Source: Candidatus Cloacimonadota bacterium (GTDB taxonomy: Bacteria > Cloacimonadota > Cloacimonadia > G963667145). From it: a stretch of 64,000 nucleotides of DNA. The notes beneath the pieces are model-generated. The model did no database searches. It had not been told where the DNA came from and saw only the letters and a list, made by a program, of their open reading frames with translations. A program made the position numbers and the translations under genes. Shown here in pieces: positions 1 through 47,434 of the stretch. Location of the stretch: positions 145,459 through 209,458 of the forward strand of contig OY762943.1 of NCBI GenBank assembly GCA_963667145.1, written 5' to 3'. How positions within the stretch are numbered: position 1 is the first letter of the stretch; each line of letters starts with the position of its first letter.

Positions 1-198
1 TACTCACGCCAAGAATTGAAAGATTTGCTCACGGCTAATGGGGGAAAATATCTTTCCACAGTCTCAGCGAAGCTCGATTATCTGATAGTTGGGGAAGCAC
101 CTGGTTCCAAGTTAACCAAAGCCGAGAAACTTGGAACGGTAACAATTGTGCAAGAAGAAGAGTTGTCGAGGTTGTTGGGATTTCACAAATTAATATAG
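1..198 (+). CDS. ligA: NAD-dependent DNA ligase, C-terminal BRCT-domain fragment (5' part of gene upstream of window)
   Basis: Frame open from nt 1 to TAG 196-198. The tail ...KLDYLIVGEAPGSKLTKAEKLGTVTIVQEEEL matches the conserved C-terminal BRCT region of bacterial LigA. Confidence 0.55.
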   Translation, partial: YSRQELKDLLTANGGKYLSTVSAKLDYLIVGEAPGSKLTKAEKLGTVTIVQEEELSRLLGFHKLI

Positions 199-229
199 AA
201 TTGGTTTTTAAGCAAAGAGGAAAATAGTC

Positions 230-2698
230 ATGAATTTATCAGATATACTGAAAGACTCAAATTATAAACTGACACAGTTTACGGAAGAGCAAATTAGAGC
301 TTTTGAGGAAAGTATTTCAACAAAAGAAGTCAGAGGAAAAGAAACTCCGTATGTAAAATGCTTGGTTCGTAATAAAGAAATAAAACTCACACCCGAAGAA
401 ACTGTTCGTCAGCTTTATGTGATGGTGCTTACAAAGGACTTTAGCTATCCTGTTTCTCGAATGGAATTGGAATATGCAGTTACTTTTGGGCGAGAGAAAA
501 AGAGAGCTGATATTGTTATCTTTGATAAAGACAAAACAACTACTCCTTACATTATTGTTGAGCTGAAAAAACCAAAATTGAAAGACGGGAAAGAACAACT
601 AAAATCTTATTGCAATGCTACTGGAGCTCCTATTGGAGTGTGGAGTAATGGCGATTCTATTTCTTATTACCATCGAAAAGATCCAAACTATTTTGAAGAT
701 TTGTCGGCTATACCTAATGCAAATGAAAAACTTTCTGACATACTTTCTGAAAGATGGACGATAAAGGAACTTGCAGAAAAAGATAAACTGTTTAGTGAGA
801 AGAAATCGTTGAAAGATTTGATTTTGGAAATGGAAGATGAAGTTTTGGCAAATGCTGGCGTGGATGTTTTTGAAGAACTTTTCAAGCTGATTTTCACTAA
901 GCTCTATGATGAAATGGAAAGTGGACGACATCCTGAGCGTCATTTGGTTTTTAGGAATTATGGTGATACCGAAACTGAATTGAAAAATAAAATTCAACAT
1001 CTATTTGATAAGGCGAAACAAAAATGGCAGGGAGTTTTCAGCGAAGATAGCAAAATAATGCTTACTCCATCGCACTTGTCGGTTTGCATTTCTTCTCTGC
1101 AAGATGTGAAACTCTTCAATTCCAACCTTGATGTGGTGGATGAGGCTTTTGAATACCTGATAAACAAGAGTAGCAAAGGAGAAAAAGGACAATACTTTAC
1201 GCCTCGCTACGTGATAGATATGTGTGTGAAAATGTTAAATCCCAAAGCAGATGAGAAGATGATAGACACAGCTGCAGGTAGCTGTGGCTTTCCTGTTCAT
1301 TCCATTTTCTATGTATGGGATCAGCAATTAATAGCTCGTGGATTGAGTAAAAGTCATAAGTTTACCACAGAGGAAAAATTCCCAGAGCAAATAGACTATG
1401 TTCGTGAGAATGTGTTTGCTATCGACTTTGATGAAAGAGCTGTGCGTGTGGCTCGGACTTTGAACCTAATAGCAGGCGATGGGCAGACCAATGTGATGCA
1501 TCTAAACACACTCGACTGGGAGCGTTGGGATGAAAAAACAGAAGATGAAGATTGGCAAGACACTTATTATGAAGGTTGGCGAAAGCTGAAGAGACTCAGG
1601 AAGGACAGAAACATTAATCGTGATTTTGAGTTTGATATTTTGATGGCAAATCCTCCATTCGCAGGAGATATTAAGGAAAGCAGAATTTTGGCAAGATACG
1701 AACTCGGCAAAAAGCCCAACGGTAAATATCAAACGAAGGTCGGTAGAGATATTTTGTTTATTGAGCGAAATCTTGATTTTCTGAAAGCTGGTGGACGAAT
1801 GGCAATTGTTCTTCCGCAAGGCAGATTTAACAATAGCAGTGATAAGCAGATTAGAGAATTTATTGCAGAACGGTGCAGGATTTTGGCTGTGGTTGGTTTG
1901 CATGGAAATGTCTTTAAACCACACACTGGCACCAAAACTTCTGTTCTATTGGTGCAGAAGTGGGATGAGCAACTTTGTCCCAAAAAAGAAGATTATCCGA
2001 TTTTCTTTGCCACTATGCAAGAGCCAAGCAAAGATAATAGTGGTGAGAAAATATTTGTACGCAAAAGTGATTTTCCAAAATTCCCCTCCTCGGGAGGGGT
2101 GGTCGAAGGTCGAGGTGGTAATTGTCGCAATTCCAAAAACTATTTTGCTTTGCCTTTCAATCCTGAGTTGAAGGAAAGAGCTAAAGAACTGAGAAAAGCA
2201 GGGAATTTGTCAGAAGTCCTATTTTGGCAACAGGTAAAAAATAAGAAATTTAAGTCTTTAGATTTCGACCGACAAAAAATTATTGGGAACTACATTGTTG
2301 ATTTTTATTGTGCTAATTGTAATCTCGTGATAGAAATAGATGGCGAGAGTCACAATGAAAAAGCTGAATATGATGCTAAAAGAGATTCTTATTTGGAAAG
2401 TTTGGGATTAACTGTAATTCATATTCCTGATATAGATGTTAAGAAGAATTTGAATGGGGTGATGGAGATGCTTTCTAACCACCCCGCCCTAAAGGGCACC
2501 CCTCCAGAGGAGGGGAAAGTGTCTGATGTGGTAGAACATTATGATGCTAATGCCAGCGATTTGAATGAATATTTGCTCGACACACACGGACATCTGATTG
2601 TGAAGCACGACCTTTTTAACCACGATGGACTAACCCAAGACGGCATTGCAGAAGCTTTTGCCGAGTTTGCCAAAAAGGAAAATTTAAGTTTTTTTTAG
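230..2698 (+). CDS. Restriction-modification subunit: N-terminal PD-(D/E)xK nuclease-like domain plus gamma-class N6-adenine DNA methyltransferase (HsdM/BcgIA-like), carrying an in-frame DUF559/Vsr-like endonuclease module (aa ~635-745) before a short C-terminal tail
   Basis: 822 aa. SAM motif I DTAAGSCGF and motif IV NPPFAGD. N-terminal ADIVIFD...YIIVELKKP resembles a PD-(D/E)xK (HsdR_N-type) motif. C-terminal LFWQQ...DFDRQKIIGNYIVDFYC...VIEIDGESH is DUF559-like. RBS aaagagga upstream. Confidence 0.8.
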   Translation: MNLSDILKDSNYKLTQFTEEQIRAFEESISTKEVRGKETPYVKCLVRNKEIKLTPEETVRQLYVMVLTKDFSYPVSRMELEYAVTFGREKKRADIVIFDKDKTTTPYIIVELKKPKLKDGKEQLKSYCNATGAPIGVWSNGDSISYYHRKDPNYFEDLSAIPNANEKLSDILSERWTIKELAEKDKLFSEKKSLKDLILEMEDEVLANAGVDVFEELFKLIFTKLYDEMESGRHPERHLVFRNYGDTETELKNKIQHLFDKAKQKWQGVFSEDSKIMLTPSHLSVCISSLQDVKLFNSNLDVVDEAFEYLINKSSKGEKGQYFTPRYVIDMCVKMLNPKADEKMIDTAAGSCGFPVHSIFYVWDQQLIARGLSKSHKFTTEEKFPEQIDYVRENVFAIDFDERAVRVARTLNLIAGDGQTNVMHLNTLDWERWDEKTEDEDWQDTYYEGWRKLKRLRKDRNINRDFEFDILMANPPFAGDIKESRILARYELGKKPNGKYQTKVGRDILFIERNLDFLKAGGRMAIVLPQGRFNNSSDKQIREFIAERCRILAVVGLHGNVFKPHTGTKTSVLLVQKWDEQLCPKKEDYPIFFATMQEPSKDNSGEKIFVRKSDFPKFPSSGGVVEGRGGNCRNSKNYFALPFNPELKERAKELRKAGNLSEVLFWQQVKNKKFKSLDFDRQKIIGNYIVDFYCANCNLVIEIDGESHNEKAEYDAKRDSYLESLGLTVIHIPDIDVKKNLNGVMEMLSNHPALKGTPPEEGKVSDVVEHYDANASDLNEYLLDTHGHLIVKHDLFNHDGLTQDGIAEAFAEFAKKENLSFF
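2083..2119. repeat. GC-rich palindromic hairpin repeat copy 1 (CCCCTCC-tcg-GGAGGGG + t-GGTCGAAGGTCGAGGTGGT tail), inside the methyltransferase ORF
   Basis: Perfect 7-bp inverted repeat with 3-nt loop. Extended copy is similar to copy 4 at 2747-2783 (15/19 tail identity). Confidence 0.7.
2481..2515. repeat. GC-rich palindromic hairpin repeat copy 2 (GCCCtaaaGGGC followed by CCCCTCC-aga-GGAGGGG), inside the methyltransferase ORF immediately after the DUF559 module
   Basis: Two adjacent short palindromes. The second is the same CCCCTCC/GGAGGGG stem as copies 1, 3 and 4. Confidence 0.65.
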
Positions 2699-2701
2699 TT
2701 T

Positions 2702-2721
2702 CCCCTCCCACTGAGGAGGGG
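2702..2721. repeat. GC-rich palindromic hairpin repeat copy 3 (CCCCTCC-cactga-GGAGGGG), directly after the methyltransferase stop codon
   Basis: Same 7-bp stem. Located 4 nt after TAG 2696-2698. Confidence 0.65.
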
Positions 2722-2724
2722 TGT

Positions 2725-4254
2725 TTGCAAAATGGGACTAAAAATTCCCCTCCTTTGGAGGGGTTGTCGAAGACCGGGGTGGTTGAACCTTTCAACGAAG
2801 CGAAATATAAAGCACTGTTGGAAGGGCTGGAAGCAGTTGAATTAGATAAAAGTATAGTTTTTAAAAATAATAAATACTTGAGAATTGATAATGAATTTTT
2901 CAATAAAAGATTTATTAAAGAAATAATTAAACTTGAGGAAAAGCCTAATGAAAAATTAATTAATATTTCTAATTTAATAACTGACTTTGGGGCTTTTTCG
3001 CAAATGAATTTTGTGAATTATATTGAAAAAGGAGTTCCTTTTATTAGAAATCAAAATGTTAAAGATAATTTAATAGATACTACAGATATTGTTTATGTTG
3101 ACAAGAAAACATACAATAAACTTTCTCTTAAATTAGAAGAAAATGACATTTTAATACCAAGAGCTGGAACATTGGGGAATGCAGCTGTAGTTTCAAAATC
3201 ATTACTTCCTGCTACTGCTAATCAGAATTTAGCTCAAATAAAACCAAATTTGAATAAAATAAAACCATATTATTTAACAACTTTTTTATGTTCAAAATTT
3301 GGATTAAATCAGATAGAAAGATTTTCTACTGGAAATGTTCAACAATGGTTAAATTTAGAAAATATTAACAATATTAAAATTCATATTCCATCAGAAAATT
3401 TTCAAAATTCAATTCATAATAAAATAATTAGTTCAATTGCATTAAAAAACAAATCCAAACTAACCTATTCCCAAGCTGAGAACTTATTACTTGAAACTCT
3501 TGGTTTAAAAAATTTTGAACCAAGCTGTGAGCCTGTAAACATTAAAAGTTTTAAAGAGTCTTTTGGCTCTTCGGGGCGATTAGATGCAGAATATTATCAG
3601 AAAAAGTATGAGGAAATTGAATTTGCTATAAAAAATTATTCAAATGGTTATAAACATTTTGGAAAATTTATAGAAAATTATTCAACAGGCTATCCATACA
3701 AAAGTGAAACTTACATTGAAAAAAAAGGTGTCCCGTTGATTAGAATAAATAATATAAACAAAGGGAATTTAGATATTTCAAACGCAATTCATATTCCTAA
3801 ACAAGACATAAATTTGAGTGTAAAAGATATTGCAGTTGAAAATGATATTTTAATTTCAATGTCTGGAACAATTGGAAATTCTTGTAAAATCCCAAAAGGA
3901 GTAAAAGCAGTAATAAACCAACGAATTATGAGAGTTACTCCGAAAAATTATAACAATGAAGTATTACCATTAATAATAAATTCTCAAATTGGAAATTTAC
4001 AATTGAATCAAATTGGAACAGGTGGCGTTCAAACAAATATTTCATCAAATGACATTAAAAATATTTTGATACCTGTATTAACAGAAAATTCACAACAACA
4101 AATCGCTGATTTGGTTGAAAAAAGTTTCAGCTTAAAGGCTCAATCCGAGCAACTACTCAAAACTGCCAAAAATGCGGTAGAAATCGCCATTGAGGAAAAT
4201 GAAGAGATTGCTATGGAGTATTTAAAACAAGAAGAGAATAAAAATGCCAAATAA
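2725..4254 (+). CDS. hsdS: Restriction-modification specificity subunit (HsdS/BcgIB-like) with two target-recognition domains; N-terminal boundary uncertain
   Basis: Two TRD halves: GVPFIRNQNVKDNLIDTTDIVYV and GVPLIRINNINKGNLDISNAIHIP. These resemble the EcoKI HsdS TRD start IRANNIQNGKFDTTDLVFV. Central and C-terminal helical spacer regions are present. Very AT-rich. The first 20 codons are encoded by hairpin copy 4, so the true start may be downstream (e.g. TTG 2878). Confidence 0.75.
   Translation: MQNGTKNSPPLEGLSKTGVVEPFNEAKYKALLEGLEAVELDKSIVFKNNKYLRIDNEFFNKRFIKEIIKLEEKPNEKLINISNLITDFGAFSQMNFVNYIEKGVPFIRNQNVKDNLIDTTDIVYVDKKTYNKLSLKLEENDILIPRAGTLGNAAVVSKSLLPATANQNLAQIKPNLNKIKPYYLTTFLCSKFGLNQIERFSTGNVQQWLNLENINNIKIHIPSENFQNSIHNKIISSIALKNKSKLTYSQAENLLLETLGLKNFEPSCEPVNIKSFKESFGSSGRLDAEYYQKKYEEIEFAIKNYSNGYKHFGKFIENYSTGYPYKSETYIEKKGVPLIRINNINKGNLDISNAIHIPKQDINLSVKDIAVENDILISMSGTIGNSCKIPKGVKAVINQRIMRVTPKNYNNEVLPLIINSQIGNLQLNQIGTGGVQTNISSNDIKNILIPVLTENSQQQIADLVEKSFSLKAQSEQLLKTAKNAVEIAIEENEEIAMEYLKQEENKNAK
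2747..2783. repeat. GC-rich palindromic hairpin repeat copy 4 (CCCCTCC-ttt-GGAGGGG + t-TGTCGAAGACCGGGGTGGT tail), in the annotated 5' end of the specificity gene
   Basis: Direct repeat of copy 1 including the tail. GC-rich island in a ~25% GC context. Confidence 0.7.
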
Positions 4255-5077
4255 TCAAGAAAATATAAAAAGTTGGATAGAGCAGTCTAAAATAGATTAT
4301 ATTGGACATTATATAAAAGCTTGGATTCCTTTTAATGCTTGGTATAATAATGTATTCCCAAGTTTAAATTCTGACAGAGAGAAAATTTCTGCTATAAAAA
4401 AAGAAGCTAACACAGTTCGAAATGCTATTAATTCTTATATGGAAACAGAAGCACAAGAGGGCTCATCATTTCGTAGTTATATTTCAGGATTATACTTTCA
4501 ATTACAGCAAAATGAAATTTATGGTCGTGATGATAGAATTTGGTTTGAAACAATTTTAAAAGAAAAAAATTCTGATAACTTAATCAATAATGAAGCATTT
4601 AGGCATAATAAATATTACTTATCTCGAACTGATGGTAGAAATCTTGGAGATGTAACGGAGATTAAAGTTGTTTTAAAAAAGAAATCGAATAATCAAACTG
4701 TTTTTACTTATATTCACCCAAATTATGATTTAGAACATTTGCAATCAAATAGTGAATTTAAAAAATTGTCACAAAACCAACAAGAAAATATTAGATTGCT
4801 ATTTGAAAAACTTACGCCAATAAAAACATATTCAATTATAGAAAATAATATAAAAGAAAATCCTAAAAATTATTATGAATGTGATTCTTATAATTTCAGA
4901 AGAGAAGTTTTAGATGAAAATTGCAAATCAATATATGTTTGTAAGGCTCTTATTGAAATATTGTATCAACTGAGAAATGTAGTGTTTCACGGGGAATTAG
5001 TTCCCAATGATGGAGCTCAAAATGTATATAAGGAAGCATACCATCTTTTAAGAATGATTCTTGATAAAATCAGATAA
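4244..5077 (+). CDS. Hypothetical protein with C-terminal HEPN-like R-x4-H motif (possible Abi/DUF4145-type RNase toxin associated with the R-M locus)
   Basis: 277 aa, AT-rich like hsdS. C-terminal helix ALIEILYQLRNVVFHGEL carries R-N-x-x-x-H-G as in HEPN Rx4-6H active sites. Overlaps hsdS stop by 11 nt, suggesting operonic linkage. Confidence 0.4.
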   Translation: MPNNQENIKSWIEQSKIDYIGHYIKAWIPFNAWYNNVFPSLNSDREKISAIKKEANTVRNAINSYMETEAQEGSSFRSYISGLYFQLQQNEIYGRDDRIWFETILKEKNSDNLINNEAFRHNKYYLSRTDGRNLGDVTEIKVVLKKKSNNQTVFTYIHPNYDLEHLQSNSEFKKLSQNQQENIRLLFEKLTPIKTYSIIENNIKENPKNYYECDSYNFRREVLDENCKSIYVCKALIEILYQLRNVVFHGELVPNDGAQNVYKEAYHLLRMILDKIR

Positions 5078-5146
5078 ATTTAGTTTCCAACAAATCTTTC
5101 GATTTAGATTTACATTTTATCAGCACATTTTTCAAAAAGCATCGTT

Positions 5147-6796
5147 ATGAATTCAATATTTAAGCCGAAATTTTTTACAGTCCTGAGAGCAGGAATTGGA
5201 AAGAAGCAGATAGTCGTCGACATCTTGTCGGGAATAGTCGTTGGCATTGTCGCTTTGCCTTTGGCGATAGCGTTCGCCGTGGCTTCTGGTGTGTCTCCCG
5301 AAAAAGGTCTGATTACAGCCATTGTAGCTGGATTTATCATCTCTTTGCTTGGTGGCAGTCGCGTGCAGATTGGAGGTCCGACTGGTGCCTTCATCGTCAT
5401 AGTTTATGGAATCGTTGAGACTTATGGGATAGATGGTCTTATCATTTCCACTATTTTGGCGGGAGTGATTTTGATTATTTTTGGACTGCTGAAAATGGGT
5501 ACTTTGCTCAAATTTTTTCCGCATTCTTTGATAGTTGGCTTCACCAGTGGGATAGCTGTGACGATTTTTTCCACGCAAATCAAGGACGCCTTGGGTCTGT
5601 CCATTGCCAAAGTTCCGTCCGAATTTTATCAGAAGTGGCTTGTGTATTTTGCAAATATCTCACAGGTGAACTGGACTGCTATTGCCATCACTGTGTTCAC
5701 GATTTTGGTAACTTTCCATTCCAAAAAATTCACCTCCAAAATTCCCGGTTCGTTCTTGGCGATTGTCATCGTTACGCCTTTGGTCTATTTTTTGCAGTTG
5801 GATGTGGCGACCATCGAGACTTTTTTCGGTGCAATTCCCAGTAGCTTCAGCTTTGCGTTTCCGCGAGTTAGCCTTGGCGATTTGCACAACTACATCGCAC
5901 CTGCTCTGACCATCGCTTTGCTTGGCGGAATAGAATCTTTGCTCTCGGCTGTGGTTGCGGACGGCATGATTAGTGGCAAGCATCGTTCCAACACGGAATT
6001 GATAGCTCAGGGGATAGCGAATATTGTAACGCCATTTTTCGGTGGAATCCCTGCCACAGGTGCTATAGCTCGCACAGCCACGAATGTGAAAAACGGGGGA
6101 AGAACTCCGATTTCTGGCATGGTGCATGCTCTCACGTTGCTGTTGATAATGCTCTTCCTCGGTCGCTGGGCAAAGCTGATTCCCATGTCGTGCTTGGCTG
6201 GAATTTTGATAGTGGTTTCCTACAATATGAGCGAGTGGCGGTCATTTGTGGCGATTTTGCGTGGCTCTTATTTCGATGTTCTTATTTTGCTCACAACATT
6301 TTTGATTACCGTGTTTTTCGATTTGACTTTGGCAATTGAAGTTGGCGTTATGCTCTCAGCAATTCTTTTCATGAAGCGGATGTCCGATATTAGCGAAAAG
6401 CGGATTGAGGATGTTGTGGATAACGATATTCTGGACAATTATTCCGACTTGCCCAGAGAGATAAAAATTTATGAGATAAGCGGACCTTTATTTTTTGCGT
6501 GTGCCAGAACTTATTCCGAGGCTATTGCCGAGATAGGATTGCGGTGCAAGGTGCTTATCATCAGGATGCGTCACGTTTCTTTTATCGACCAGACAGGCTT
6601 GCACAATTTGCACGATGTTTTGTCTATTTTGCGGAAGAAAAATATCTCCGTGATTATCTCTGGTGTTAATGCCGAAGTCAAGGAAGAACTGATAAATCAC
6701 CGTTTTGACGATTTGATTTCCCCAGAGTTGATAGTGGACAATTTCAAAGTTGCTACCGAAAAAGGCAAAGAGATTTTGCAGGCTAACGAGTCCTAA
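5147..6796 (+). CDS. SulP-family inorganic anion (sulfate/bicarbonate) permease with C-terminal STAS domain
   Basis: 549 aa, about 10 predicted TM segments. N-terminal GIVVGIVALPLAIAFAVASGVSPEKGLITAIVAGF is the SulP signature region. C-terminal STAS-like fold. Confidence 0.85.
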   Translation: MNSIFKPKFFTVLRAGIGKKQIVVDILSGIVVGIVALPLAIAFAVASGVSPEKGLITAIVAGFIISLLGGSRVQIGGPTGAFIVIVYGIVETYGIDGLIISTILAGVILIIFGLLKMGTLLKFFPHSLIVGFTSGIAVTIFSTQIKDALGLSIAKVPSEFYQKWLVYFANISQVNWTAIAITVFTILVTFHSKKFTSKIPGSFLAIVIVTPLVYFLQLDVATIETFFGAIPSSFSFAFPRVSLGDLHNYIAPALTIALLGGIESLLSAVVADGMISGKHRSNTELIAQGIANIVTPFFGGIPATGAIARTATNVKNGGRTPISGMVHALTLLLIMLFLGRWAKLIPMSCLAGILIVVSYNMSEWRSFVAILRGSYFDVLILLTTFLITVFFDLTLAIEVGVMLSAILFMKRMSDISEKRIEDVVDNDILDNYSDLPREIKIYEISGPLFFACARTYSEAIAEIGLRCKVLIIRMRHVSFIDQTGLHNLHDVLSILRKKNISVIISGVNAEVKEELINHRFDDLISPELIVDNFKVATEKGKEILQANES

Positions 6797-31338: not shown

Positions 31339-32886
31339 ATGGACAATCTTGTGTCCAAAAAGGGAGATATTTTGAAAAATTCTTTGGTTGAAATTTATTT
31401 AGAAACAGCAAAAAAATTTGGGAAAAAGACGGCTTTCGTCGATTCTATGAGCGGCAAGGAACTAAGTTATTCCAAGTCTTTGGTGGCTGTGCTGATGCTC
31501 GCTAAGAAAATTGAAAAGCTGTCAGGAAAGAGAATAGGCGTGATGATACCTACATCTCCAGGAGGAATGTTGGTTTCTATAGCTACTCTTATGGTGGGCA
31601 AAATTCCAGTTTTGATCAACTATTCGACTGGAGCGATTGCGAACAGTCAATATGCTATCAAGAAGTGCAAGTTGGATGTTGTTATCACTTCCGAAAAACT
31701 TTTGCAAAAGTTGGAGATTGAGCCAATTGATAAGATGATAATGGTGGAGAATATTCTTGGTTCTGTGTCTTTCTTTGATAAGCTCAAAGCTCTTTGGAAA
31801 AGCAAAAAATCACCCGAAAATATTTTGTCCGAATTTGCTAAAAGTGGTGGCGATGATTGGGCTGTAATGCTTCTGACGACTGGTAGCGAGTCCGAACCTA
31901 AGGTGGTTCCTCTTTCGCACAACAACATCGTTTCGCAATTGGTGGCTATACCAAAGATTTTGGATTTGACCGACAAAGACATCTTTTTGTCTTCACTTCC
32001 GCTGTTCCACAGTTTTGGATTTACCACTAACTTCTGGCTACCCATCTCCTTGGGTGCTACCATGGTAACTGTTGCGAATCCTTTGGATTACAAATTAGTT
32101 TGCCAAACAGTTCCCAAATACAGAATTTCCTTCATGACGGGAACACCTGTATTCTTTAAGGCTTATTTGCCTAAATCTAATCCCGACACTTTTGCTACTG
32201 TACGCATAATGATTTGCGGTGCGGATAAACTGCCCGAAGGAGTTCGCAAGGCTTATTTCGATAAATTTGGCAAGGAGCTTTGTGAAGGTTACGGAGTGAC
32301 CGAGGCTTCGCCTGTGATTAGCACCAACACGCACGATTATCACAAACCAGGGAGCATTGGCAAGCAATTGCCCGGTGTGCAGGTTAAAGTTGTGGAAAGG
32401 GAATCTGATAAAGAGCTTCCAGTTGGGCAGGAAGGTAGGCTTTTGGTGAAAGGTGAGAATGTGATGAAAGGTTATCTCGTGGATGAAAAGCTGGATAAAA
32501 GTGCTTTGAATGATGGATGGTATGACACGGGAGATATTGCTATTATTGATGAAGACGAATATATTTGGCACAGAGGCAGAGCCAAGCGATTTTTGAAAAT
32601 CGGTGGAGAGATGGTTAGCTTGGTAGTGGTGGAGGAAGCTCTGCAAAAGTATTTTCCACCAGAAGTTACCTATTGTGCCGTGGAAGTTAGGCAGAAAGAA
32701 GGCAGCTCTTGTGTTGGATTGGCTGTAAATCAGGAGTGCAAACTTTTGGACATTAAAAAATTCTTGAAAAAAAACGGTCTCAATTCTATCAGTTTGCCTT
32801 CCAAACTTTTTGTTTTGGACGAAATTCCCGTAATGGGCAGTGGCAAAGTTGACTTCAAGTCTGTGCAAGAGAGATGCAATAAGTAA
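31339..32886 (+). CDS. Adenylate-forming enzyme, Aas/AasS-like acyl-ACP (or acyl-CoA) synthetase, paralog 1 of 4
   Basis: LLTTGSESEPKVVPLSH (TSGSxGxPK), EGYGVTEASP, GWYDTGD, GRAKRFLKIGGEMVS. These match the synthetase half of E. coli Aas. Confidence 0.75.
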   Translation: MDNLVSKKGDILKNSLVEIYLETAKKFGKKTAFVDSMSGKELSYSKSLVAVLMLAKKIEKLSGKRIGVMIPTSPGGMLVSIATLMVGKIPVLINYSTGAIANSQYAIKKCKLDVVITSEKLLQKLEIEPIDKMIMVENILGSVSFFDKLKALWKSKKSPENILSEFAKSGGDDWAVMLLTTGSESEPKVVPLSHNNIVSQLVAIPKILDLTDKDIFLSSLPLFHSFGFTTNFWLPISLGATMVTVANPLDYKLVCQTVPKYRISFMTGTPVFFKAYLPKSNPDTFATVRIMICGADKLPEGVRKAYFDKFGKELCEGYGVTEASPVISTNTHDYHKPGSIGKQLPGVQVKVVERESDKELPVGQEGRLLVKGENVMKGYLVDEKLDKSALNDGWYDTGDIAIIDEDEYIWHRGRAKRFLKIGGEMVSLVVVEEALQKYFPPEVTYCAVEVRQKEGSSCVGLAVNQECKLLDIKKFLKKNGLNSISLPSKLFVLDEIPVMGSGKVDFKSVQERCNK

Positions 32887-32958
32887 CAATTTGTGAAAGA
32901 GAAGTTAATTCAAAAATAGAAGATAATAGAAAAATGGATTGAGGGGGTTCTTGTACAA

Positions 32959-34482
32959 ATGGTTTTGCAAGAAATGTTTGTTGAGGTTGCCAAAAAGCAG
33001 AAAGATAAAACGGCTTTCATCGATGGAGTTGGTGGCAAAAAGATTAGTTATAACAAGGCTTTGATAGCCAGCATCATCTTAAAAGATAAGATTTCTCTGT
33101 ATGAAGAAAAAAATATTGGAATAATGATACCGACTTCAGGTGGCTGTATGATTGCTATGATAGCCACTCTGATGGCAGGCAAAGTTCCTGTGCTTATCAA
33201 CTATTCTACTGGAGCTATCAAAAATTCCATATTCGCTCGCAAGAAATGTAATTTCGATTTGATTATCACTTCGTCCGCTCTTTTGAAAAAGTTGGAATTG
33301 GAACCGTTGCCGGGGATGATTTTTATCGAGGAGTTCGTTGAAAATATTTCGCTTTTTGCCAAGGTGAAAGCGGGTGTTATTTCCAAACTTTCCACGTCTT
33401 TCATAAAGCAGATGATACATATCGGTAGCGAGGATGAGATTGTGGCGATTTTGTTCACCTCTGGAAGTGAAAAAACTCCCAAGGCTGTTCCTCTGACGCA
33501 CAAAAATATTTCACAGCAATTGGTTAGCATACCTCAGGTGTTGGAGATGGACGAAACGGAGATATTCCTCTCTTGTTTGCCTCTGTTCCATGTGTTTGGA
33601 TTTACCACTATGTTTTGGCTTCCGATCTCTTTTGGATGCACGATAGTTACACACCCTAATCCACTGGAATATAAAAAAATATGTAAGTCAATTGCTAAAT
33701 ACAAGGCGACCTATCTTGTGGCAACTCCGTCGTTTTTCAGGTCGTATTTGAGCAAGGCTGATGATGATACTTTTACCTCTTTGAGAGTGATGATTTCTGG
33801 TGCGGATAACCTGCCAGAAAATGTACGATTAGAGTACTTAAACCGCTTTGGCAAGGAAGTTTGGCAAGGATACGGAGTGACGGAGGCTTCACCAGTGGTT
33901 TCCACAAATAATAAGCAATTTCACAAACCAGGGAGCTTGGGCAAGCCGTTGCCAGGTGTGGAGGTGAAGATTATCGGTATAGATTCTGGCGAGGAGTTGC
34001 CCGCTGGAAGCGAGGGGAAAATTATGCTCAAGGGTGAGAATGTTATGCAAGGATATTATCGTGATGTGGAGGAAACGAGCTATCACATGCATAACGGCTG
34101 GTACGATACGGGCGATATGGGTGTTTTGGATGAAGACGGATTTTTGTGGCATCGTGGCAGACTGAAAAGGTTCGTAAAAATTGGTGGAGAGATGGTCAGC
34201 ATGGTAGCCGTGGAGAACGCTTTGCAAGATTTTTTCCCTGATGATGTTCTATATTGCGTAGTGGAGCTGTTGGCTGCAAAAAAAGGTTCCGCACTTGCTA
34301 TTGCGGTGACCAAACGGACAAATTTGAGTAAATTGAGAAATCATCTGAATTCCAAGGGTTTTGCTGCTATTTATCTGCCTAAGAAGCAGATAGTGTTGAA
34401 AGAAATTCCTCTGATGGGTAGTGGCAAAGTTGATTTTAGAGGAGTTCAGAAAATTTGTGATGAACTGGAGCAAGTTAAATAG
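32959..34482 (+). CDS. Aas/AasS-like adenylate-forming enzyme, paralog 2 of 4
   Basis: Same four motifs (LFTSGSEKTPKAVPLTH, GYGVTEASP, GWYDTGD, RLKRFVKIGGEMVS). RBS gagggggt. Confidence 0.75.
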   Translation: MVLQEMFVEVAKKQKDKTAFIDGVGGKKISYNKALIASIILKDKISLYEEKNIGIMIPTSGGCMIAMIATLMAGKVPVLINYSTGAIKNSIFARKKCNFDLIITSSALLKKLELEPLPGMIFIEEFVENISLFAKVKAGVISKLSTSFIKQMIHIGSEDEIVAILFTSGSEKTPKAVPLTHKNISQQLVSIPQVLEMDETEIFLSCLPLFHVFGFTTMFWLPISFGCTIVTHPNPLEYKKICKSIAKYKATYLVATPSFFRSYLSKADDDTFTSLRVMISGADNLPENVRLEYLNRFGKEVWQGYGVTEASPVVSTNNKQFHKPGSLGKPLPGVEVKIIGIDSGEELPAGSEGKIMLKGENVMQGYYRDVEETSYHMHNGWYDTGDMGVLDEDGFLWHRGRLKRFVKIGGEMVSMVAVENALQDFFPDDVLYCVVELLAAKKGSALAIAVTKRTNLSKLRNHLNSKGFAAIYLPKKQIVLKEIPLMGSGKVDFRGVQKICDELEQVK

Positions 34483-34491
34483 GTGATAGAT

Positions 34492-36021
34492 ATGAAAAAT
34501 TATGAATTGTTGGCAGGAAAATTTGTTGAGATTGCCAAGCGTTATCCGAATAAAGTGGCATTTGTGGACGGCGTAAGAGGACAAGAATTTACTTACGGCA
34601 GAGCTTTGATAGCTGTGCTTTTGCTAAAGAAGAAATTTAAAGGCTTCGAACAAAAAAAGATTGGTATGATGGTTCCCACTTCGGGTGGAGCAATCATCGC
34701 TCTTATCGCTGCTTTGGCTGCTGGCAAGACTTCGGTGATGATCAACTATTCTACGGGAATCATCAAAAATTGCCAATATGCCAAGGAGAAGTGTGGTGTT
34801 GAGCTTGTTTTGACTTCTAAAAAACTTTTGGAAAAACTCAACGTGGAGCCGACAAAACATATGGTTTTCTTGGAAGATATTTTTGTTTCACTTTCCTCAC
34901 TGGACAAAGCCGTCGCTTTTGCAAAATCCAAACTTCCGGTTTTTTGTCTAAAGGCTTCGTTCAATAAGCTTAAACTGGAAGACACCTGTGTGATGTTGTT
35001 CACATCGGGGAGCGAGAAAGAGCCGAAGTGTGTGCCAATCAGTCAAAAGAATGTGTTGAGCCAGCTTAATTCATATCCTCATTACATTCCGATGATGATG
35101 GAAGATGTTGTGATGGCGAATTTGCCTTTGTTTCACGTGTTCGGCTACACAGTTTTGCTGTGGTATGGAGTTTACTACGGAGCCACTTTGGTTACACATC
35201 CCAATCCTTTGGAATTTAAAACTTTGTGTGAAATATTTGAAAAATATAAAGTTACTTTCACTATGGGAACACCAAATATGTTCAGTTCTTATTTGCGATA
35301 TGCCAACGAGCGGACTTTTGCACATATCAGGACGATGATAGCGGGAGCGGACAAATTGGGTAACAAAACCAAGAATGAGTATAGGGAACGCTTTGGTGTG
35401 GAGCTTTTTGAAGGTTACGGAGTGACTGAGGCGTCGCCAGTTATCAGCACGAATATTCCAGGGCATGACAAACCAGGTTCCGTGGGTAGAGCGTTGCCAG
35501 GTGTTGAGGTGAAAATTGTGGATGACCGCACCAGAGAGACTTTGCCTAATGGTAAAGAAGGAAAAATTCTCGTGCGAGGCGAAAATGTGATTAGCGGATA
35601 CTACAACGATGTGGAAGAAAGCTCTCTGCGTTTTTGTGGTGGCTGGTATGATACTGGAGATATGGGAATTTTGGATAATGACGGCTATCTTTGGCATAGA
35701 GGCAGATTGCGTCGCTTTGTGAAAGTTGGAGGAGAGATGGTCAGTCTTGCGGCTATTGAGGAATCTTTGGGCAAAATTTTCCCCGAAGGTTTGCAATATT
35801 GCATGGTTGGTTTGCCCGATGACAAAAAGGGAGCAAGGCTCATTTTGGTCACCAATGGGAAAGTTAGTAGGAGTGAGGTAATCACTCAGCTCACGGAAGA
35901 CGGATTTTCCAAAATATATTTCCCCAAAAAATTCCAAGTTGCTGAGGAGTTGCCGATTATGGGTAACGGAAAAATAAATTTTAGAGCAGTGGAGCAGATG
36001 GCACTGGATGCGGAGAGCTAA
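34492..36021 (+). CDS. Aas/AasS-like adenylate-forming enzyme, paralog 3 of 4
   Basis: Same motifs. ATG 34492 after RBS aggtga, abutting the stop of paralog 2. Confidence 0.75.
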   Translation: MKNYELLAGKFVEIAKRYPNKVAFVDGVRGQEFTYGRALIAVLLLKKKFKGFEQKKIGMMVPTSGGAIIALIAALAAGKTSVMINYSTGIIKNCQYAKEKCGVELVLTSKKLLEKLNVEPTKHMVFLEDIFVSLSSLDKAVAFAKSKLPVFCLKASFNKLKLEDTCVMLFTSGSEKEPKCVPISQKNVLSQLNSYPHYIPMMMEDVVMANLPLFHVFGYTVLLWYGVYYGATLVTHPNPLEFKTLCEIFEKYKVTFTMGTPNMFSSYLRYANERTFAHIRTMIAGADKLGNKTKNEYRERFGVELFEGYGVTEASPVISTNIPGHDKPGSVGRALPGVEVKIVDDRTRETLPNGKEGKILVRGENVISGYYNDVEESSLRFCGGWYDTGDMGILDNDGYLWHRGRLRRFVKVGGEMVSLAAIEESLGKIFPEGLQYCMVGLPDDKKGARLILVTNGKVSRSEVITQLTEDGFSKIYFPKKFQVAEELPIMGNGKINFRAVEQMALDAES

Positions 36022-41488: not shown

Positions 41489-41940
41489 AATTAGACATTA
41501 TTTTGAACGGAGAACCGAAATCTTACCTCATCAACGAGGACGAATACCTTTTGGATGTTTTGCGAAATAACGGAATTACAAGCGTGAAAAGAAGTTGCGA
41601 CTCTTCTTCTTGTGCGATGTGCACCGTTTTGCTTGAGGGCAAACCAATTCTTTCTTGTTCGTTTTTGGCAGCTCGTGCTCAAGGCAAAGCTGTTACCACT
41701 GTCGAAGGCATTCAAAAAGAGGTCGCAGAGTTTTTCAAGGCGATGAACCAAGAGGGTGCTATCCAGTGTGGATACTGCGATTCCGCTTTGGCTGTGACTG
41801 TTTATGCTATGGTTAAGGAGCTTGGCACAAATTTAAGCGATGAGCAAATTAGACATTATGTAGGCGGAAATGTTTGTCGTTGTTCAGGTTATATGAGCCA
41901 AATGCGAGCTATAAAAACATTTTTGGGAGGTTTAAAATGA
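41485..41940 (+). CDS. Mo-hydroxylase [2Fe-2S]-binding (small) subunit, operon 1
   Basis: Plant-type and second 2Fe-2S Cys motifs (CDSSSCAMCTV; QCGYCDSA; CRCSGY). Confidence 0.85.
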   Translation: MKLDIILNGEPKSYLINEDEYLLDVLRNNGITSVKRSCDSSSCAMCTVLLEGKPILSCSFLAARAQGKAVTTVEGIQKEVAEFFKAMNQEGAIQCGYCDSALAVTVYAMVKELGTNLSDEQIRHYVGGNVCRCSGYMSQMRAIKTFLGGLK

Positions 41941-44270: not shown

Positions 44271-44282
44271 GAAAAATTATCT

Positions 44283-44313
44283 GGAAGCTATCTCATAAGT
44301 TGGGATAGCTTCC
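44283..44313 (+). terminator. Hairpin GGAAGCTATC-tcataagttg-GATAGCTTCC after operon 1
   Basis: 10-bp perfect stem, no clear U-tract. Confidence 0.45.
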
Positions 44314-44560
44314 ACCTGTTGATAGTGAGAATAGGCGAAACACAGGTTGGATTGTAATAAGTTGAAGAATGAGATATAAAAAATTTAAGAAAATTATTGA
44401 CTTAAAAGATGGCACAACGACAATTCGATTGTTTGCTCTATGGGCATTGGAAATGAGCGTGGCGAAGTGGAATCTCTTTTTCTGGATTTGAGATGCTATG
44501 TAGCTTGTGGTTGGATAGTTGGGAGCTTAGAATAGATTCAATTTATTCAGGAGTAAAATA

Positions 44561-46105: not shown

Positions 46106-46135
46106 TGAGATTTAAAAAATAATTAGGAGTTAGTA

Positions 46136-47415: not shown

Positions 47416-47434
47416 GAAAGAGGGAGAAATTGTT

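What the first reader, a model, noticed from the sequence alone, without database searches (positions are those of the whole stretch)
230..5077. AT-rich defense islet: nuclease+methyltransferase fusion, HsdS-like subunit and HEPN-like gene, with no HsdR
Between ligA and the SulP permease lies a three-gene block. Its GC content drops sharply: the hsdS and downstream genes are roughly 25% GC against about 40% elsewhere. It encodes a methyltransferase with an N-terminal PD-(D/E)xK-like domain, a two-TRD specificity subunit and a 277-aa HEPN-like protein. No SF2 helicase/HsdR gene is present anywhere in the window. This looks like a horizontally acquired R-M/abortive-infection module. The architecture is closer to two-subunit Type IIB (BcgI-like A+B) enzymes than to a classical Type I hsdRMS.
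Basis: partly seen in the sequence, partly recalled or inferred. Interest (0 to 1): 0.6.

Follow-up and report, generated by a model that had tools for sequence, protein, structure and literature searches.

The report
Restriction module joined by ribosomal frameshift
This AT-rich three-gene block is a mobile restriction-modification module without a motor subunit, and comparison with relatives indicates that its DNA-recognition subunit is made by a programmed -1 ribosomal frameshift off the end of the nuclease-methylase gene, a way of expressing such enzymes that I could not find described.

Summary
Three + strand ORFs lie at 230-2698, 2725-4254 and 4244-5077. The second and third have 26-27% GC against 40.5% for the window. 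No HsdR is present.

Gene 1 is an HSDR_N_2 nuclease fused to a gamma N6-adenine methylase. Its closest solved relative is the Type IIB enzyme BsaXI. Gene 2 is a two-TRD specificity subunit. Gene 3 belongs to an unmodelled family with an invariant R-x4-H motif and is probably a HEPN RNase.

Three things were missed.

1. The S reading frame has no usable start. In 72 of 80 related genomes the RM gene ends in an in-phase slippery heptamer (U UUU UUU, U UUU UUC, G GGA AAG or G GGA AAA). A covarying hairpin starts 5-7 nt later, and S continues in the -1 frame.
2. Natural single-chain RM-S homologues are colinear with the predicted frameshift product. They keep the heptamer, the hairpin and an immediate -1-frame stop. 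Both gene layouts should therefore yield RM and RM-S.
3. In the window a hairpin-flanked DUF559 cassette sits in frame inside RM. An 84-nt hairpin element sits in the frameshift junction and keeps the -1 frame open.

The module type is known. The recoding appears to be undescribed, and nothing here has been tested experimentally.

The parts
230..2698 (+). RM gene (822 aa): nuclease-methyltransferase fusion carrying an inserted DUF559 domain
   Evidence: ORF and Pfam. PADLOC MTase_I PDLC03034 scores 1129 bits. The best PDB match is RM.BsaXI 8w0p, E 4e-23.
392..715 (+). N-terminal PD-(D/E)xK nuclease domain (aa 55-162) with motif E81...D94...E111-x-K113
   Evidence: HSDR_N_2 at E 7e-29. E111 and K113 are invariant, and E81 and D94 are at least 90% conserved, across 14 homologues from three phyla. 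BsaXI has the same residue pattern (E73, D90, E105, K107), shown essential by mutagenesis (PMC11997821).
1130..2047 (+). Gamma-class N6-adenine methyltransferase domain (aa 301-606), with motif I D346-x-A-x-G-x-G-F and motif IV N474-P-P-F
   Evidence: N6_Mtase and Eco57I hits. These columns are invariant in alignment A2.
2077..2517 (+). In-frame DUF559 (Vsr-like endonuclease) cassette bounded by the GC-rich hairpins 2083-2099 and 2499-2515
   Evidence: DUF559 at aa 647-748. The insert is absent from about 112 of the 120 best homologues. The hairpin motif occurs 4 times in the window against 0 expected. The inverted repeat is 95% complementary. Relatives sit in frame inside other R-M genes.
2518..2695 (+). 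Conserved C-terminal tail of RM (...HGHLIVKHDLFNHDGLTQDGIAEAFAEFAKKENLSFF)
   Evidence: It aligns with the C-termini of the uninserted homologues.
2689..2695 (+). Slippery heptamer U UUU UUU in phase with the RM frame; the RM stop codon TAG follows at 2696-2698
   Evidence: Sequence and phase worked out from the ORF coordinates. The same position holds an in-phase heptamer in 72 of 80 loci by the automated scan; manual reading adds L043, L060, L063 and L072.
2699..2787 (+). Hairpin-pair element inserted in the junction (net +84 nt, 28 codons, no stop in the -1 frame); hairpins at 2702-2721 and 2747-2763; 2741-2783 repeats 2077-2119
   Evidence: The first hairpin starts 6 nt after the heptamer. 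The region 2689-2835 folds at -52.5 kcal/mol, z -2.3. The sister locus L085 has a different-length insert at the same place (its stop-to-PxNEAKY segment is 9 nt longer), also open in the -1 frame.
2776..2841 (+). Remnant of the family's ancestral frameshift-stimulating hairpin, which encodes PFNEAKYKALLEGLE
   Evidence: This is the only match in the window to covariance model R1, at 41.4 bits and E 5e-8. The model was built from 70 loci.
2695..4254 (+). S (specificity) coding sequence in the -1 frame, with two TRDs; predicted to be read as the C-terminal 519 aa of a 1341-aa RM-S fusion
   Evidence: Two Methylase_S stretches and PADLOC Specificity_I. There is no ATG, GTG or TTG in this frame upstream of the heptamer, and the first ATG is at codon 105. 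The conceptual fusion is colinear with natural single-chain homologues.
4244..5077 (+). 277-aa HEPN-like gene overlapping the S stop by 11 nt; R244-N-V-V-F-H249 is encoded at 4973-4990
   Evidence: N31, L87, R244 and H249 invariant in 124 representatives. The AF2 model has pLDDT 92.3. The gene sits directly after S in Bacillota, Verrucomicrobiota, Bacteroidota and Proteobacteria.

Best explanation
The block is a horizontally mobile, translocase-free restriction-modification module of the Type IIB kind, carrying an abortive-infection-type accessory gene.

Shown by sequence analysis:
- Gene 1 fuses a PD-(D/E)xK nuclease to an N6-adenine methylase.
- Gene 2 is a two-TRD specificity module.
- No HsdR is linked, here or in 80 relatives.

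Inferred from comparative evidence: the S module has no start codon of its own and is reached by a programmed -1 ribosomal frameshift. Ribosomes finishing RM slip on U UUU UUU (2689-2695), just before the TAG stop. A hairpin starting 6 nt downstream stimulates the slip. Translation then continues into S and gives a 1341-aa RM-S fusion. Ribosomes that do not slip release the 822-aa RM. One RM plus one RM-S would give the (RM)2S composition seen for BsaXI, and S would never be made without RM.

Relatives encoded as a single RM-S ORF keep the same heptamer and hairpin, but have a stop in the -1 frame. There the frameshift would make RM and normal decoding would make RM-S, as in dnaX.

Inferred by analogy: gene 3 is a latent HEPN-type RNase that serves as a second line of defence, like PrrC with EcoprrI.

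In this genome two hairpin-bounded insertions have entered the locus without breaking either reading frame: a DUF559 endonuclease cassette and an 84-nt element in the junction.
For: R-M type
- BsaXI is the top PDB hit, and its catalytic E/D/ExK residues were shown by mutagenesis.
- No HsdR-like gene appears in the window or in the 80 loci.

Frameshift
- 72 of 80 loci have an in-phase heptamer 0-1 codon before the RM stop: U UUU UUU in 34, G GGA AAG in 26, U UUU UUC in 9 and G GGA AAA in 3. Manual reading adds L043, L060, L063 and L072. A hairpin of -17 to -40 kcal/mol starts 5-7 nt later.
- All four heptamers fall in the classes measured as most efficient in E. coli (PMC4066793).
- The 18-bp hairpin is 89.7% paired, against 31-61% when the partner columns are slid. 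It has 49 double-sided changes against 19.7 +/- 3.4 in shuffles (0 of 500). These include U-A to C-G changes at synonymous sites with no unpaired cell.
- 69 of 71 loci have no ATG, GTG or TTG in the S frame between the upstream stop and the heptamer. In L063 and L071 the S frame opens at the heptamer itself.
- Three-base periodicity in the S frame starts about 10 codons upstream of the only candidate TTG start.
- The heptamer class switched at least 8 times on a tree of 68 RM proteins, always to another shifty heptamer.
- 97 of the best 120 hits to a fused homologue are natural single-chain nuclease-methylase-S proteins of 1100-1245 aa. Their junction...LSFF-xxx-PF(D/N)E.KY..LLEGLE, is colinear with the conceptual frameshift product.
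- In 90 of 93 fused proteins the residue after FF is D, E, K or N. Those codons give UGA or UAA in the -1 frame.
- All 5 fused genes with DNA in hand keep AGU UUU UUU, have an immediate -1 stop, and have a hairpin of -25 to -29 kcal/mol 6 nt on.
- The window's 84-nt insert and the different-length insert in L085 both keep the -1 frame open.
- An engineered EcoKI M-S fusion is active and needs extra free M (PMC3510504).

Gene 3
- The R-x4-H motif is invariant.
- Nine of 124 members hit DUF4209 weakly; DUF4209 is a HEPN family found in R-M operons.
- The RM-S-gene 3 order is conserved across phyla.
- At least 16 HEPN clades are linked to R-M systems (PMC3710099).
Against: - No experimental datum exists. 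Neither the fusion protein, nor cleavage, nor methylation has been observed.
- A conserved TTG pair (codons 14-15 of the S frame, in the 3' arm of the hairpin) could serve as an independent start after termination of RM. Free S could therefore exist as well as, or instead of, the fusion.
- Three loci (L024, L032, L048) have one T fewer, which places S in the +1 frame.
- In the window the ancestral hairpin is displaced 89 nt downstream. It scores 41 bits, against 60-77 for most intact elements. Stimulation must therefore come from the inserted hairpin, which is unproven.
- The DUF559 insertion and the 28-residue linker might impair the enzyme.
- An upstream Shine-Dalgarno-like stimulator is present in only 39 of 70 loci.
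- The HEPN fold was not confirmed. Foldseek against the PDB gave no hit at E <= 0.001 for a model of pLDDT 92, and no HEPN Pfam model reaches significance.
Confidence: 0.7

Rival explanations
1. This is an ordinary Type I system whose hsdR lies elsewhere in the genome. The N-terminal nuclease-like domain of the M protein would be vestigial.
For: PADLOC and JGI label the proteins as a Type I methyltransferase and Type I specificity subunit. Only 64 kb of a 1.54-Mb contig was examined.
Against: No HsdR-like gene lies within 10 kb in any of 80 species, or in the window. The nuclease residues E81, D94, E111 and K113 are conserved across phyla, which argues against a vestigial domain. BsaXI RM is a closer match than any HsdM in the PDB. 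In L001 a complete, separate hsdMSR sits next to this module with its own M and S genes.
Confidence: 0.07
2. There is no recoding. S is translated on its own from the conserved TTG in the 3' arm of the hairpin, by termination-reinitiation. The hairpin only couples S translation to RM translation.
For: TTG codons at S-frame positions 14-15 are present in most loci. Gene callers annotate S as a separate gene. EcoKI hsdM and hsdS are translationally coupled (PMC3510504).
Against: - This model does not explain why the RM gene always ends in one of four high-efficiency heptamers in the correct phase, or why these were exchanged for one another at least 8 times.
- Coding periodicity and an invariant Tyr codon lie upstream of the TTG.
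- The peptide PF(N/D)E.KY is part of the protein in 97 natural fusions.
- The fused genes retain the heptamer, the hairpin and a -1 stop.
- The inserts in the window and in L085, which lie upstream of the TTG, both stay open in the -1 frame.
Confidence: 0.15
3. The T-run is a slipped-strand phase-variation tract. By gaining or losing a T it toggles the locus between split and fused (or on and off) states.
For: Runs of 7-8 T are mutable. Three loci differ by one T and have S in another frame. A T8-to-T9 change would fuse the two ORFs (sequence reading).
Against: Thirty loci use G GGA AAG or G GGA AAA, which are not repeats (plus L060 by reading). The natural fusions have T7 followed by GAN or AAN, so they are not simple +1 T variants of the split genes. 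The hairpin covariation also has no role in this model.
Confidence: 0.03
4. In this particular genome the module is a decaying relic. The DUF559 cassette and the junction element have inactivated it, and only the methylase, or nothing, still works.
For: There are two insertions in one locus. The ancestral hairpin is weakened here and more so in the sister locus L085. A related copy, L086, is split by an ISL3 transposase. Two DUF559-bearing homologues, P0007 and P0008, have lost the C-terminal tail.
Against: All three ORFs are intact. Both insertions preserve the frame. The catalytic motifs of the nuclease and the methylase are unchanged. The DUF559-bearing, full-length form also occurs in other genomes at 72-79% identity (P0002-P0005; L005, L085), which implies persistence under selection.
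Confidence: 0.12

Closest known systems
BsaXI and BcgI (Type IIB R-M enzymes with an RM fusion subunit plus an S subunit)
   Same: An N-terminal PD-(D/E)xK nuclease is fused to a gamma N6-adenine methylase. S is a separate HsdS-like subunit with two TRDs. There is no ATPase. BsaXI RM is the best solved match (E 4e-23). BsaXI assembles as (RM)2S (PMC11997821).
   Different: Only the methylase region aligns by sequence (residues 212-580); the nuclease domain gave no PDB sequence hit. The BsaXI 'knob' and 'paddle' were not looked for. S here lacks a start codon and follows a frameshift signal; the BsaXI paper expresses bsaXIS and bsaXIRM as separate genes. Cutting on both sides of the site is untested.
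Natural single-chain nuclease-methylase-S proteins of the same family (e.g. Beggiatoa alba, Anabaena PCC 7108, Microcystis, Methylovulum). By my own recollection this is the architecture of single-chain Type IIB enzymes such as AloI and CjeI.
   Same: They share 52-100% identity with the fused query used. Their junctions are colinear with the predicted frameshift product. They carry the same heptamer and hairpin.
   Different: They form one ORF. The -1 frame ends at once in UGA or UAA, so frameshifting would shorten the product rather than extend it. The relationship to AloI and CjeI was not tested here.
dnaX tau/gamma programmed -1 frameshift
   Same: There is an X XXY YYZ heptamer and a downstream stem-loop at 5-7 nt, and two products share an N-terminus. 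In the fused genes an immediate stop follows in the -1 frame. An upstream AGGA-type element lies 7-9 nt before the heptamer in part of the family.
   Different: The protein family is unrelated. In the split layout, as in this window, the frameshift product is the longer one. The upstream element is not universal. This comparison rests on established knowledge of dnaX, not on a tool result.
Engineered EcoKI HsdM-HsdS fusion ('Type IMS', Roberts et al. 2012)
   Same: It shows that an M-S fusion is active, and that it needs additional free M to reach the M2S composition (PMC3510504). This is the logic proposed here for RM plus RM-S.
   Different: It is artificial, it belongs to Type IA, it needs HsdR, and it has no frameshift signal.
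PrrC-EcoprrI and other R-M-linked HEPN RNases (Anantharaman et al. 2013)
   Same: A gene with an Rx4-6H motif is embedded in an R-M operon, immediately next to hsdS. At least 16 HEPN clades show such linkage.
   Different: Gene 3 has no ABC ATPase domain, matches no HEPN Pfam model significantly, and has a beta-rich insert between its helices. RNase activity and control by the R-M enzyme are inferred only.
MADS (methylation-associated defence system) MAD2 and MAD5
   Same: They are distant homologues: NCBIfam MADS2 scores 303.6 bits and MADS5 201.3 bits.
   Different: Both scores are far below the curated cut-offs of 720 and 400. The other mad genes of the 8-gene operon are absent from the block, which has only three genes.

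Membership tests
Type IIB restriction-modification (BcgI/BsaXI-like) | Endonuclease and methyltransferase on one polypeptide, with an intact PD-(D/E)xK site and an N6-adenine methylase motif IV | tested here: met
   HSDR_N_2 plus N6_Mtase. E81, D94, E111, K113 and NPPF (474-477) are conserved.
Type IIB restriction-modification (BcgI/BsaXI-like) | HsdS-like specificity module with two TRDs, either separate or fused | tested here: met
   Two Methylase_S stretches and PADLOC Specificity_I hits.
Type IIB restriction-modification (BcgI/BsaXI-like) | No ATP-dependent translocase subunit | tested here: met
   No HsdR-like hit in the window or in 80 loci with 10-kb flanks. The large ORFs of the window that were scanned are housekeeping genes. 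The rest of the genome was not seen.
Type IIB restriction-modification (BcgI/BsaXI-like) | Cleaves on both sides of a bipartite site at fixed distances and excises a short fragment | not testable with these tools
   This needs in vitro digestion with purified protein.
Classical Type I R-M (hsdRMS) | HsdR subunit with an SF2 ATPase motor, encoded with hsdM and hsdS | tested here: not met
Classical Type I R-M (hsdRMS) | HsdM with an N-terminal helical HsdM_N domain and no nuclease | tested here: not met
   There is no HsdM_N hit; HSDR_N_2 is found instead.
MADS (MAD2/MAD5) | Scores above the NCBIfam equivalog cut-offs, and presence of the other mad genes | tested here: not met
   The scores are 303.6 against a cut-off of 720 and 201.3 against 400. 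The block has three genes only, whereas MADS is an 8-gene operon.
Programmed -1 ribosomal frameshift site | X XXY YYZ heptamer in the zero frame of the upstream ORF | tested here: met
   U UUU UUU at 2689-2695 in the window. The same is true of 72 of 80 loci by the automated scan, all with heptamers of high-efficiency classes.
Programmed -1 ribosomal frameshift site | Stimulatory RNA structure 5-9 nt downstream, supported by covariation | tested here: met
   Family hairpin. In the window a different, inserted hairpin occupies that position. The ancestral one is displaced.
Programmed -1 ribosomal frameshift site | The downstream ORF is in the -1 frame, lacks its own initiation site, and shows a coding signature from the shift site onward | tested here: met
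   The remaining doubt is a TTG at codons 14-15.
Programmed -1 ribosomal frameshift site | The trans-frame protein is actually produced | not testable with these tools
   Only indirect support is available: natural in-frame fusions that are colinear with the predicted product.
HEPN superfamily | Conserved Rx4-6H motif with a polar residue after R | tested here: met
   The window has R244-N245-x3-H249. R and H are invariant in 124 representatives.
HEPN superfamily | Four-helix up-and-down bundle fold, or a significant match to a HEPN profile | tested here: inconclusive

The most novel reading that the evidence does not exclude
A very widespread, cross-phylum family of Type IIB-like restriction enzymes (at least 521 of the GTDB species representatives) sets the ratio of its two polypeptides, RM and RM-S, by programmed -1 ribosomal frameshifting. 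It does so in two mirror-image gene layouts. In the split layout the shift extends RM into S. In the fused layout the shift truncates RM-S to RM. If true, this would be the first recoding-controlled restriction-modification system that I could find. It would also mean that current annotation systematically misreads these loci as 'orphan Type I M plus S'.

Separately, the DUF559 insert belongs to a frame-preserving mobile endonuclease cassette that settles inside R-M genes.
Probability: 0.7. Interest if true: 0.85.

Novelty: new variant of a known kind. Interest (0 to 1): 0.8.

Why it matters
- **Annotation.** Standard defence-system finders label this family as a Type I methylase and S subunit without a restriction partner. 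A large class of probably complete restriction enzymes is therefore being counted as orphan methylases.
- **Mechanism.** If the frameshift is real, it gives a simple genetic answer to how an (RM)2S enzyme gets its 2:1 stoichiometry. It also explains how a specificity subunit is prevented from existing without its catalytic partner.
- **Recoding.** It would add a large, cross-phylum example to the short list of bacterial cellular genes that use -1 frameshifting. It comes with a rare natural control: two gene layouts that need the same shift in opposite senses.
- **Enzyme discovery.** The RM gene is highly conserved and S is variable, so the family could be a source of programmable Type IIB-like enzymes.
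- **Defence biology.** The variable third slot holds a HEPN-like gene, AbiEii, SIR2, an AAA ATPase or Abi_alpha. This offers test cases for restriction coupled to abortive infection.

Tried and rejected
- **Sequence searches of the PDB for gene 3.** The single sequence gave no hit. The profile gave only coiled-coil noise, namely haemagglutinin HA2 and LcrV.
- **Pfam, NCBIfam and PADLOC on gene 3.** No significant hit. The UniRef name 'Apea-like HEPN' on two members could not be reproduced with the Pfam copy held here.
- **PDB search with the nuclease domain alone.** No hit.
- **MADS membership.** Rejected because both scores are far below the cut-offs.
- **Rfam.** No family matches in the window. 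The junction hairpin gives only sub-threshold miRNA-like matches.
- **Promoter and terminator scan of 1-5400.** Counts equal the chance expectation, so it is uninformative.
- **Taxon of the window.** Exact look-up of RM, DnaK and SulP returned unnamed singleton clusters from a 1.54-Mb contig. The closest RM relatives are Bacteroidales MAGs, but the organism was not identified.
- **14-nt inverted repeat at 14-27 and 5091-5104, bracketing the islet.** Judged to be chance, because several repeats of that quality occur in 6 kb and one arm lies inside the ligA coding sequence.
- **Upstream Shine-Dalgarno-like stimulator.** Present in only 39 of 70 loci, so it is not counted as part of the signal.
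- **Literature.** I found no paper combining ribosomal frameshifting with R-M specificity subunits. Only open-access full text was searched, and only the first 300,000 characters of the 2016 recoding review are held.

Full report
**1. The observation**

The region holds three + strand ORFs: 230-2698 (822 aa), 2725-4254 (509 aa as listed from a TTG) and 4244-5077 (277 aa).

The composition shift is real and sharp.
- GC is 0.267 for S and 0.264 for gene 3.
- The window as a whole is 0.405, the first gene 0.382 and the SulP gene 0.445.
- No 1.5-kb window in the remaining 57 kb falls below 0.345.
- GC3 is 0.17 and 0.155, against 0.43-0.51 in DnaK, PFOR and SulP.

A BRCT-domain ORF runs off the left edge, consistent with the end of ligA. 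A Sulfate_transp plus STAS permease lies to the right.

**2. What the genes are**

Gene 1 (RM)
There is no HsdM_N hit.
- HSDR_N_2 belongs with the EcoR124I HsdR nuclease domain in the PD-(D/E)xK superfamily (PMC3424549).
- In an alignment with homologues from Bacteroidota, Bacillota and Verrucomicrobiota, E111-L-K113 is invariant and E81 and D94 are nearly so. The methylase motifs I and IV (NPPF, 474-477) are also conserved.
- The best solved relative is the RM subunit of the Type IIB enzyme BsaXI (E 4e-23). It ranks ahead of every Type I HsdM.
- In BsaXI the corresponding residues E73, D90, E105 and K107 are essential for cleavage, and the enzyme is an (RM)2S heterotrimer (PMC11997821).

Gene 2 (S) has two Methylase_S stretches and many PADLOC Specificity_I hits.

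No HsdR
- tblastn with two Type I HsdR probes finds nothing in the window, or within 10 kb of the RM gene in 80 other species.
- Of the 17 ORFs of 450 aa or more in the window, three are RM, S and SulP. Ten of the other 14 were scanned and are housekeeping enzymes.

The module is of the BcgI/BsaXI kind and is not a classical hsdRMS.

MADS was considered because NCBIfam lists MAD2 and MAD5 as the nearest named families. The scores are 304 against a cut-off of 720 and 201 against 400. The rest of that 8-gene operon is absent.

**3. Distribution**

The RM protein is unusually conserved and widely transferred. The GTDB species representatives contain at least 521 relatives. The best 80 are 69-85% identical to the window protein. 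They come from Bacteroidota, Bacillota (Oceanobacillus, Paenibacillus), Beta-, Gamma- and Zetaproteobacteria (Neisseria, Aggregatibacter, Moraxella, Ghiorsea), Spirochaetes, Verrucomicrobiota, Ignavibacteria and others.

S is usually lower in GC than RM (55 of 58 loci) and lower than the flanks (51 of 58). Together with the composition anomaly, this supports horizontal acquisition.

**4. The S gene has no start, and the junction is a frameshift site**

I read the RM-S junction in many loci. RM ends ...LSFF* (AGU UUU UUU UAG) or ...GK* (G GGA AAG UAG). The conserved S N-terminus, SPFNEAKYKALLEGLE, follows in the -1 frame. That frame is open across the RM stop.

A systematic pass gave the following.
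- **Heptamers.** 72 of 80 loci have an X XXY YYZ heptamer in the RM zero frame, 0-1 codon before the stop: U UUU UUU in 34, G GGA AAG in 26, U UUU UUC in 9 and G GGA AAA in 3. L043, L060, L063 and L072 were missed by the script and are also canonical.
- **Efficiency.** These are exactly the classes measured as most efficient for -1 frameshifting in E. coli, V_VVA_AAR and H_HHU_UUY. G_GGA_AAG is among the top three (PMC4066793).
- **Hairpin.** A hairpin of -17 to -40 kcal/mol begins 5-7 nt after the heptamer.
- **Covariation.** On a gap-free alignment of 70 loci, the 18-bp stem is 89.7% paired, against 31-61% when the partner columns are slid. It has 49 double-sided changes against 19.7 +/- 3.4 in shuffles (0 of 500). 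One pair shows U-A in 55 sequences, C-G in 9, A-U in 2 and U-G in 4, with no unpaired cell. Those changes are synonymous in the S frame.
- **No start codon.** In 69 of 71 loci there is no ATG, GTG or TTG in the S frame between the upstream stop and the heptamer. In L063 and L071 that frame opens at the heptamer itself. The first ATG lies anywhere from codon 12 to codon 460. The only recurrent candidate start is a TTG pair at codons 14-15, buried in the 3' arm of the stem.
- **Coding signature.** Three-base periodicity of variation in the S frame, with an invariant Tyr codon (UAY) in the loop, begins about 10 codons upstream of that TTG.
- **Heptamer switching.** The heptamer class switched at least 8 times on a neighbour-joining tree of 68 RM proteins. 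Each switch was from one shifty heptamer to another. Recombination of C-terminal modules could lower the true number of events.

**5. Natural fusions give a mirror-image control**

One locus, L067 from Methylovulum, encodes RM and S as a single 1166-codon ORF.

- Searching with that ORF showed that 97 of the best 120 hits are single-chain HSDR_N_2-N6_Mtase-Methylase_S proteins of 1100-1245 aa. They come from Cyanobacteria, Methylococcales, Beggiatoa, Thiospirillum, Selenomonadaceae and Desulfobacteraceae.
- Their junctions, for example ...LSFF-DSS-PFDEVKYRALLEGLE, are colinear with the conceptual -1 product of the split genes...LSFF-LGS-PFNEAKYKALLEGLE. The peptide upstream of the TTG is therefore a genuine part of the S module.
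- In 90 of 93 fused proteins the residue after FF is D, E, K or N. Those codons (GAN, AAN) create UGA or UAA in the -1 frame.
- All five fused genes for which I fetched DNA keep AGU UUU UUU, have an immediate -1 stop, and have a hairpin of -25 to -29 kcal/mol 6 nt downstream.

In the fused layout, normal decoding would give RM-S, and a -1 shift would give RM ending ...LSFF, as in dnaX. In the split layout, normal decoding gives RM and the shift gives RM-S. Two opposite gene arrangements keep the same signal and predict the same pair of products. I regard this as the strongest single argument.

An engineered EcoKI M-S fusion is active, but in vitro it needs extra free M to reach the M2S composition (PMC3510504). 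This supplies the functional rationale. One RM plus one RM-S equals (RM)2S.

**6. The window itself**

- The heptamer is at 2689-2695 and the TAG at 2696-2698.
- An 89-nt segment lies between the stop and CCTTTCAAC (the start of the PFNE coding sequence), where relatives have 5 nt. The net gain is 84 nt, or 28 codons. It has no stop in the -1 frame, and it places its own hairpin (2702-2721) 6 nt after the heptamer.
- The region 2689-2835 folds at -52.5 kcal/mol (z -2.3).
- The ancestral hairpin survives at 2776-2841. It is the only hit in the window to a covariance model of the element, at 41 bits against 60-77 for most intact copies.
- The closest relative, L085 (79% identity), has an insert of different length at the same place. 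Its stop-to-PxNEAKY segment is 9 nt longer than the window's. It is also open in the -1 frame, and its ancestral hairpin has decayed further.
- The predicted products are RM of 822 aa and RM-S of 1341 aa.

**7. Rivals for S expression**

- **Independent initiation at the TTG after termination of RM.** This cannot be excluded and may coexist with frameshifting. It does not explain the phased heptamers, the coding signal upstream of the TTG, the fused-gene configuration, or the frame-preserving inserts.
- **Phase variation of the T-run.** This is excluded as a general explanation by the G GGA AAG loci. Three loci with one T fewer (L024, L032, L048) remain unexplained.

Neither Rfam nor the literature I could search describes this element.

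**8. Gene 3**

- It overlaps the S stop by 11 nt.
- Its family has about 700 representatives at 50% clustering, all roughly 255-290 aa and single-domain, with no Pfam model.
- Across 124 representatives at 19-44% identity to the window protein, only N31, L87, R244 and H249 are invariant. R244-N-x3-H249 is an Rx4H motif with the polar residue after R that is typical of catalytic HEPN domains.
- The AF2 model is confident (pLDDT 92.3). It has helices at both ends and a beta-rich insert. Foldseek found no PDB neighbour.
- The only recurrent profile signal is weak: DUF4209 in 9 of 124 members. DUF4209 is a HEPN family noted in R-M operons.
- The RM-S-gene 3 order recurs in Bacillota, Verrucomicrobiota, Bacteroidota and Proteobacteria.
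- The slot after S is variable. Among 36 tightly linked third genes there were 12 of this family, 6 extra half-S genes, 3 AbiEii, and also AAA_21 ATPases, SIR2_2, DUF4747 and DUF2806/Abi_alpha.

By analogy with PrrC and EcoprrI, I infer a latent RNase that acts when restriction fails. This step is inference only.

**9. The DUF559 insert**

- It occupies a variable linker between the methylase domain and the conserved C-terminal tail. Most homologues lack it.
- It is bounded by GC-rich hairpins, which occur 4 times in the window against 0 expected.
- Its left end (2077-2119) is repeated at 2741-2783, in the junction element.
- In L005 the cassette is bounded by 54-nt direct repeats.
- More than 560 close relatives exist in metagenome contigs. 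Of the best 80, 32 sit in frame inside long ORFs. The ten host ORFs scanned were a Type I HsdR, a Type ISP enzyme, an Eco57I-like methylase, three N6_N4 methylases, two HsdS, a fumarase and one ORF with no other Pfam domain.
- DUF559 groups with Vsr and with a group I intron homing endonuclease.

This looks like a frame-preserving mobile endonuclease cassette with a preference for R-M genes. I followed it only this far.

**10. Verdict**

The module type is known: Type IIB-like R-M plus an R-M-linked HEPN-like gene.

What appears new is the recoding signal that joins RM and S across a very large family, with its mirror-image form in the fused genes. Also apparently new are the two frame-preserving insertions in this copy. 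All of this is comparative inference, and no protein product has been observed.

Noticed in passing
window 2077-2517; loci L091-L170 (e.g. L095:1505-5242, L092:2-3448, L105:6-2117, L111:1706-3544): The hairpin-flanked DUF559 (Vsr-like) cassette has more than 560 close relatives in metagenomes. Of the best 80, 32 sit in frame inside long ORFs. The ten scanned hosts were mostly R-M genes (HsdR, Type ISP, Eco57I-like and N6_N4 methylases, HsdS), plus a fumarase. The end peptides are conserved: (N/D)SPPxEGW..DGVV on the left and HPALxGTPPxEGN on the right. It looks like a mobile insertion that preserves the host reading frame.
   Followed up: partly
window 2699-2787 and 2077-2119; L085:4955-5060: The 43-nt left end of the DUF559 cassette is repeated (86% identity) in the RM-S junction element. 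In the sister genome L085 the corresponding two copies encode the same peptide (NSPPMEGWTAQLDGVV), which differs from the window's. This suggests either genome-specific hairpin element families or gene conversion. How these elements move is unknown.
   Followed up: partly
L005-L084, the position directly after S: The slot after the S gene is a variable accessory position. It holds the HEPN-like family, extra single-TRD half-S genes, AbiEii (behind an enlarged S of about 700 aa), AAA_21 ATPases, SIR2_2, DUF4747, DUF2806/Abi_alpha, and several ORFs with no Pfam hit (L024, L050, L082).
   Followed up: partly
L024:12072-12140, L032:9367-9435, L048:5262-5330: These three loci have one T fewer in the T-run than their nearest canonical forms, which places S in the +1 frame. 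They could be homopolymer assembly errors in MAGs, null alleles or phase variants.
   Followed up: no
L086:6390-10157: In one DUF559-bearing relative the RM gene is split by an ISL3-family transposase. An HSDR_N_2 fragment is left upstream and a 718-aa remainder downstream. This is an example of decay of the module.
   Followed up: no
L002:4072-6576: The Verrucomicrobiota RM (835 aa) has a different insertion, not DUF559, at the same linker between the methylase domain and the C-terminal tail. That loop is evidently permissive for insertions.
   Followed up: no
L067:11975-12020 and fused proteins P0373-P0403: Many single-chain RM-S proteins carry the linker DLDL(R/P)GFKNLAGLYA right after LSFF. 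In L067 this linker is encoded by a perfect palindromic hairpin (GACCTGCCAGG...CTTGGCAGGTC). A different hairpin element thus occupies the stimulator position, parallel to what is seen in the window.
   Followed up: partly
window 1-64000: All 17 ORFs of 450 aa or more are on the + strand, and cumulative GC skew rises steadily over the first 12 kb. This is consistent with a strongly strand-biased, probably leading-strand region. RM, DnaK and SulP are each singleton clusters at 90% identity, so the organism has no close sequenced relative in the collection.
   Followed up: no
window 31339-36021 and 41874-49822: There are three consecutive AMP-binding enzyme paralogues (31339-32886, 32959-34482, 34483-36021). 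There are also two molybdopterin xanthine-dehydrogenase-type large subunits (41874-44270, 47435-49822). Both are paralogue clusters unrelated to the finding.
   Followed up: no
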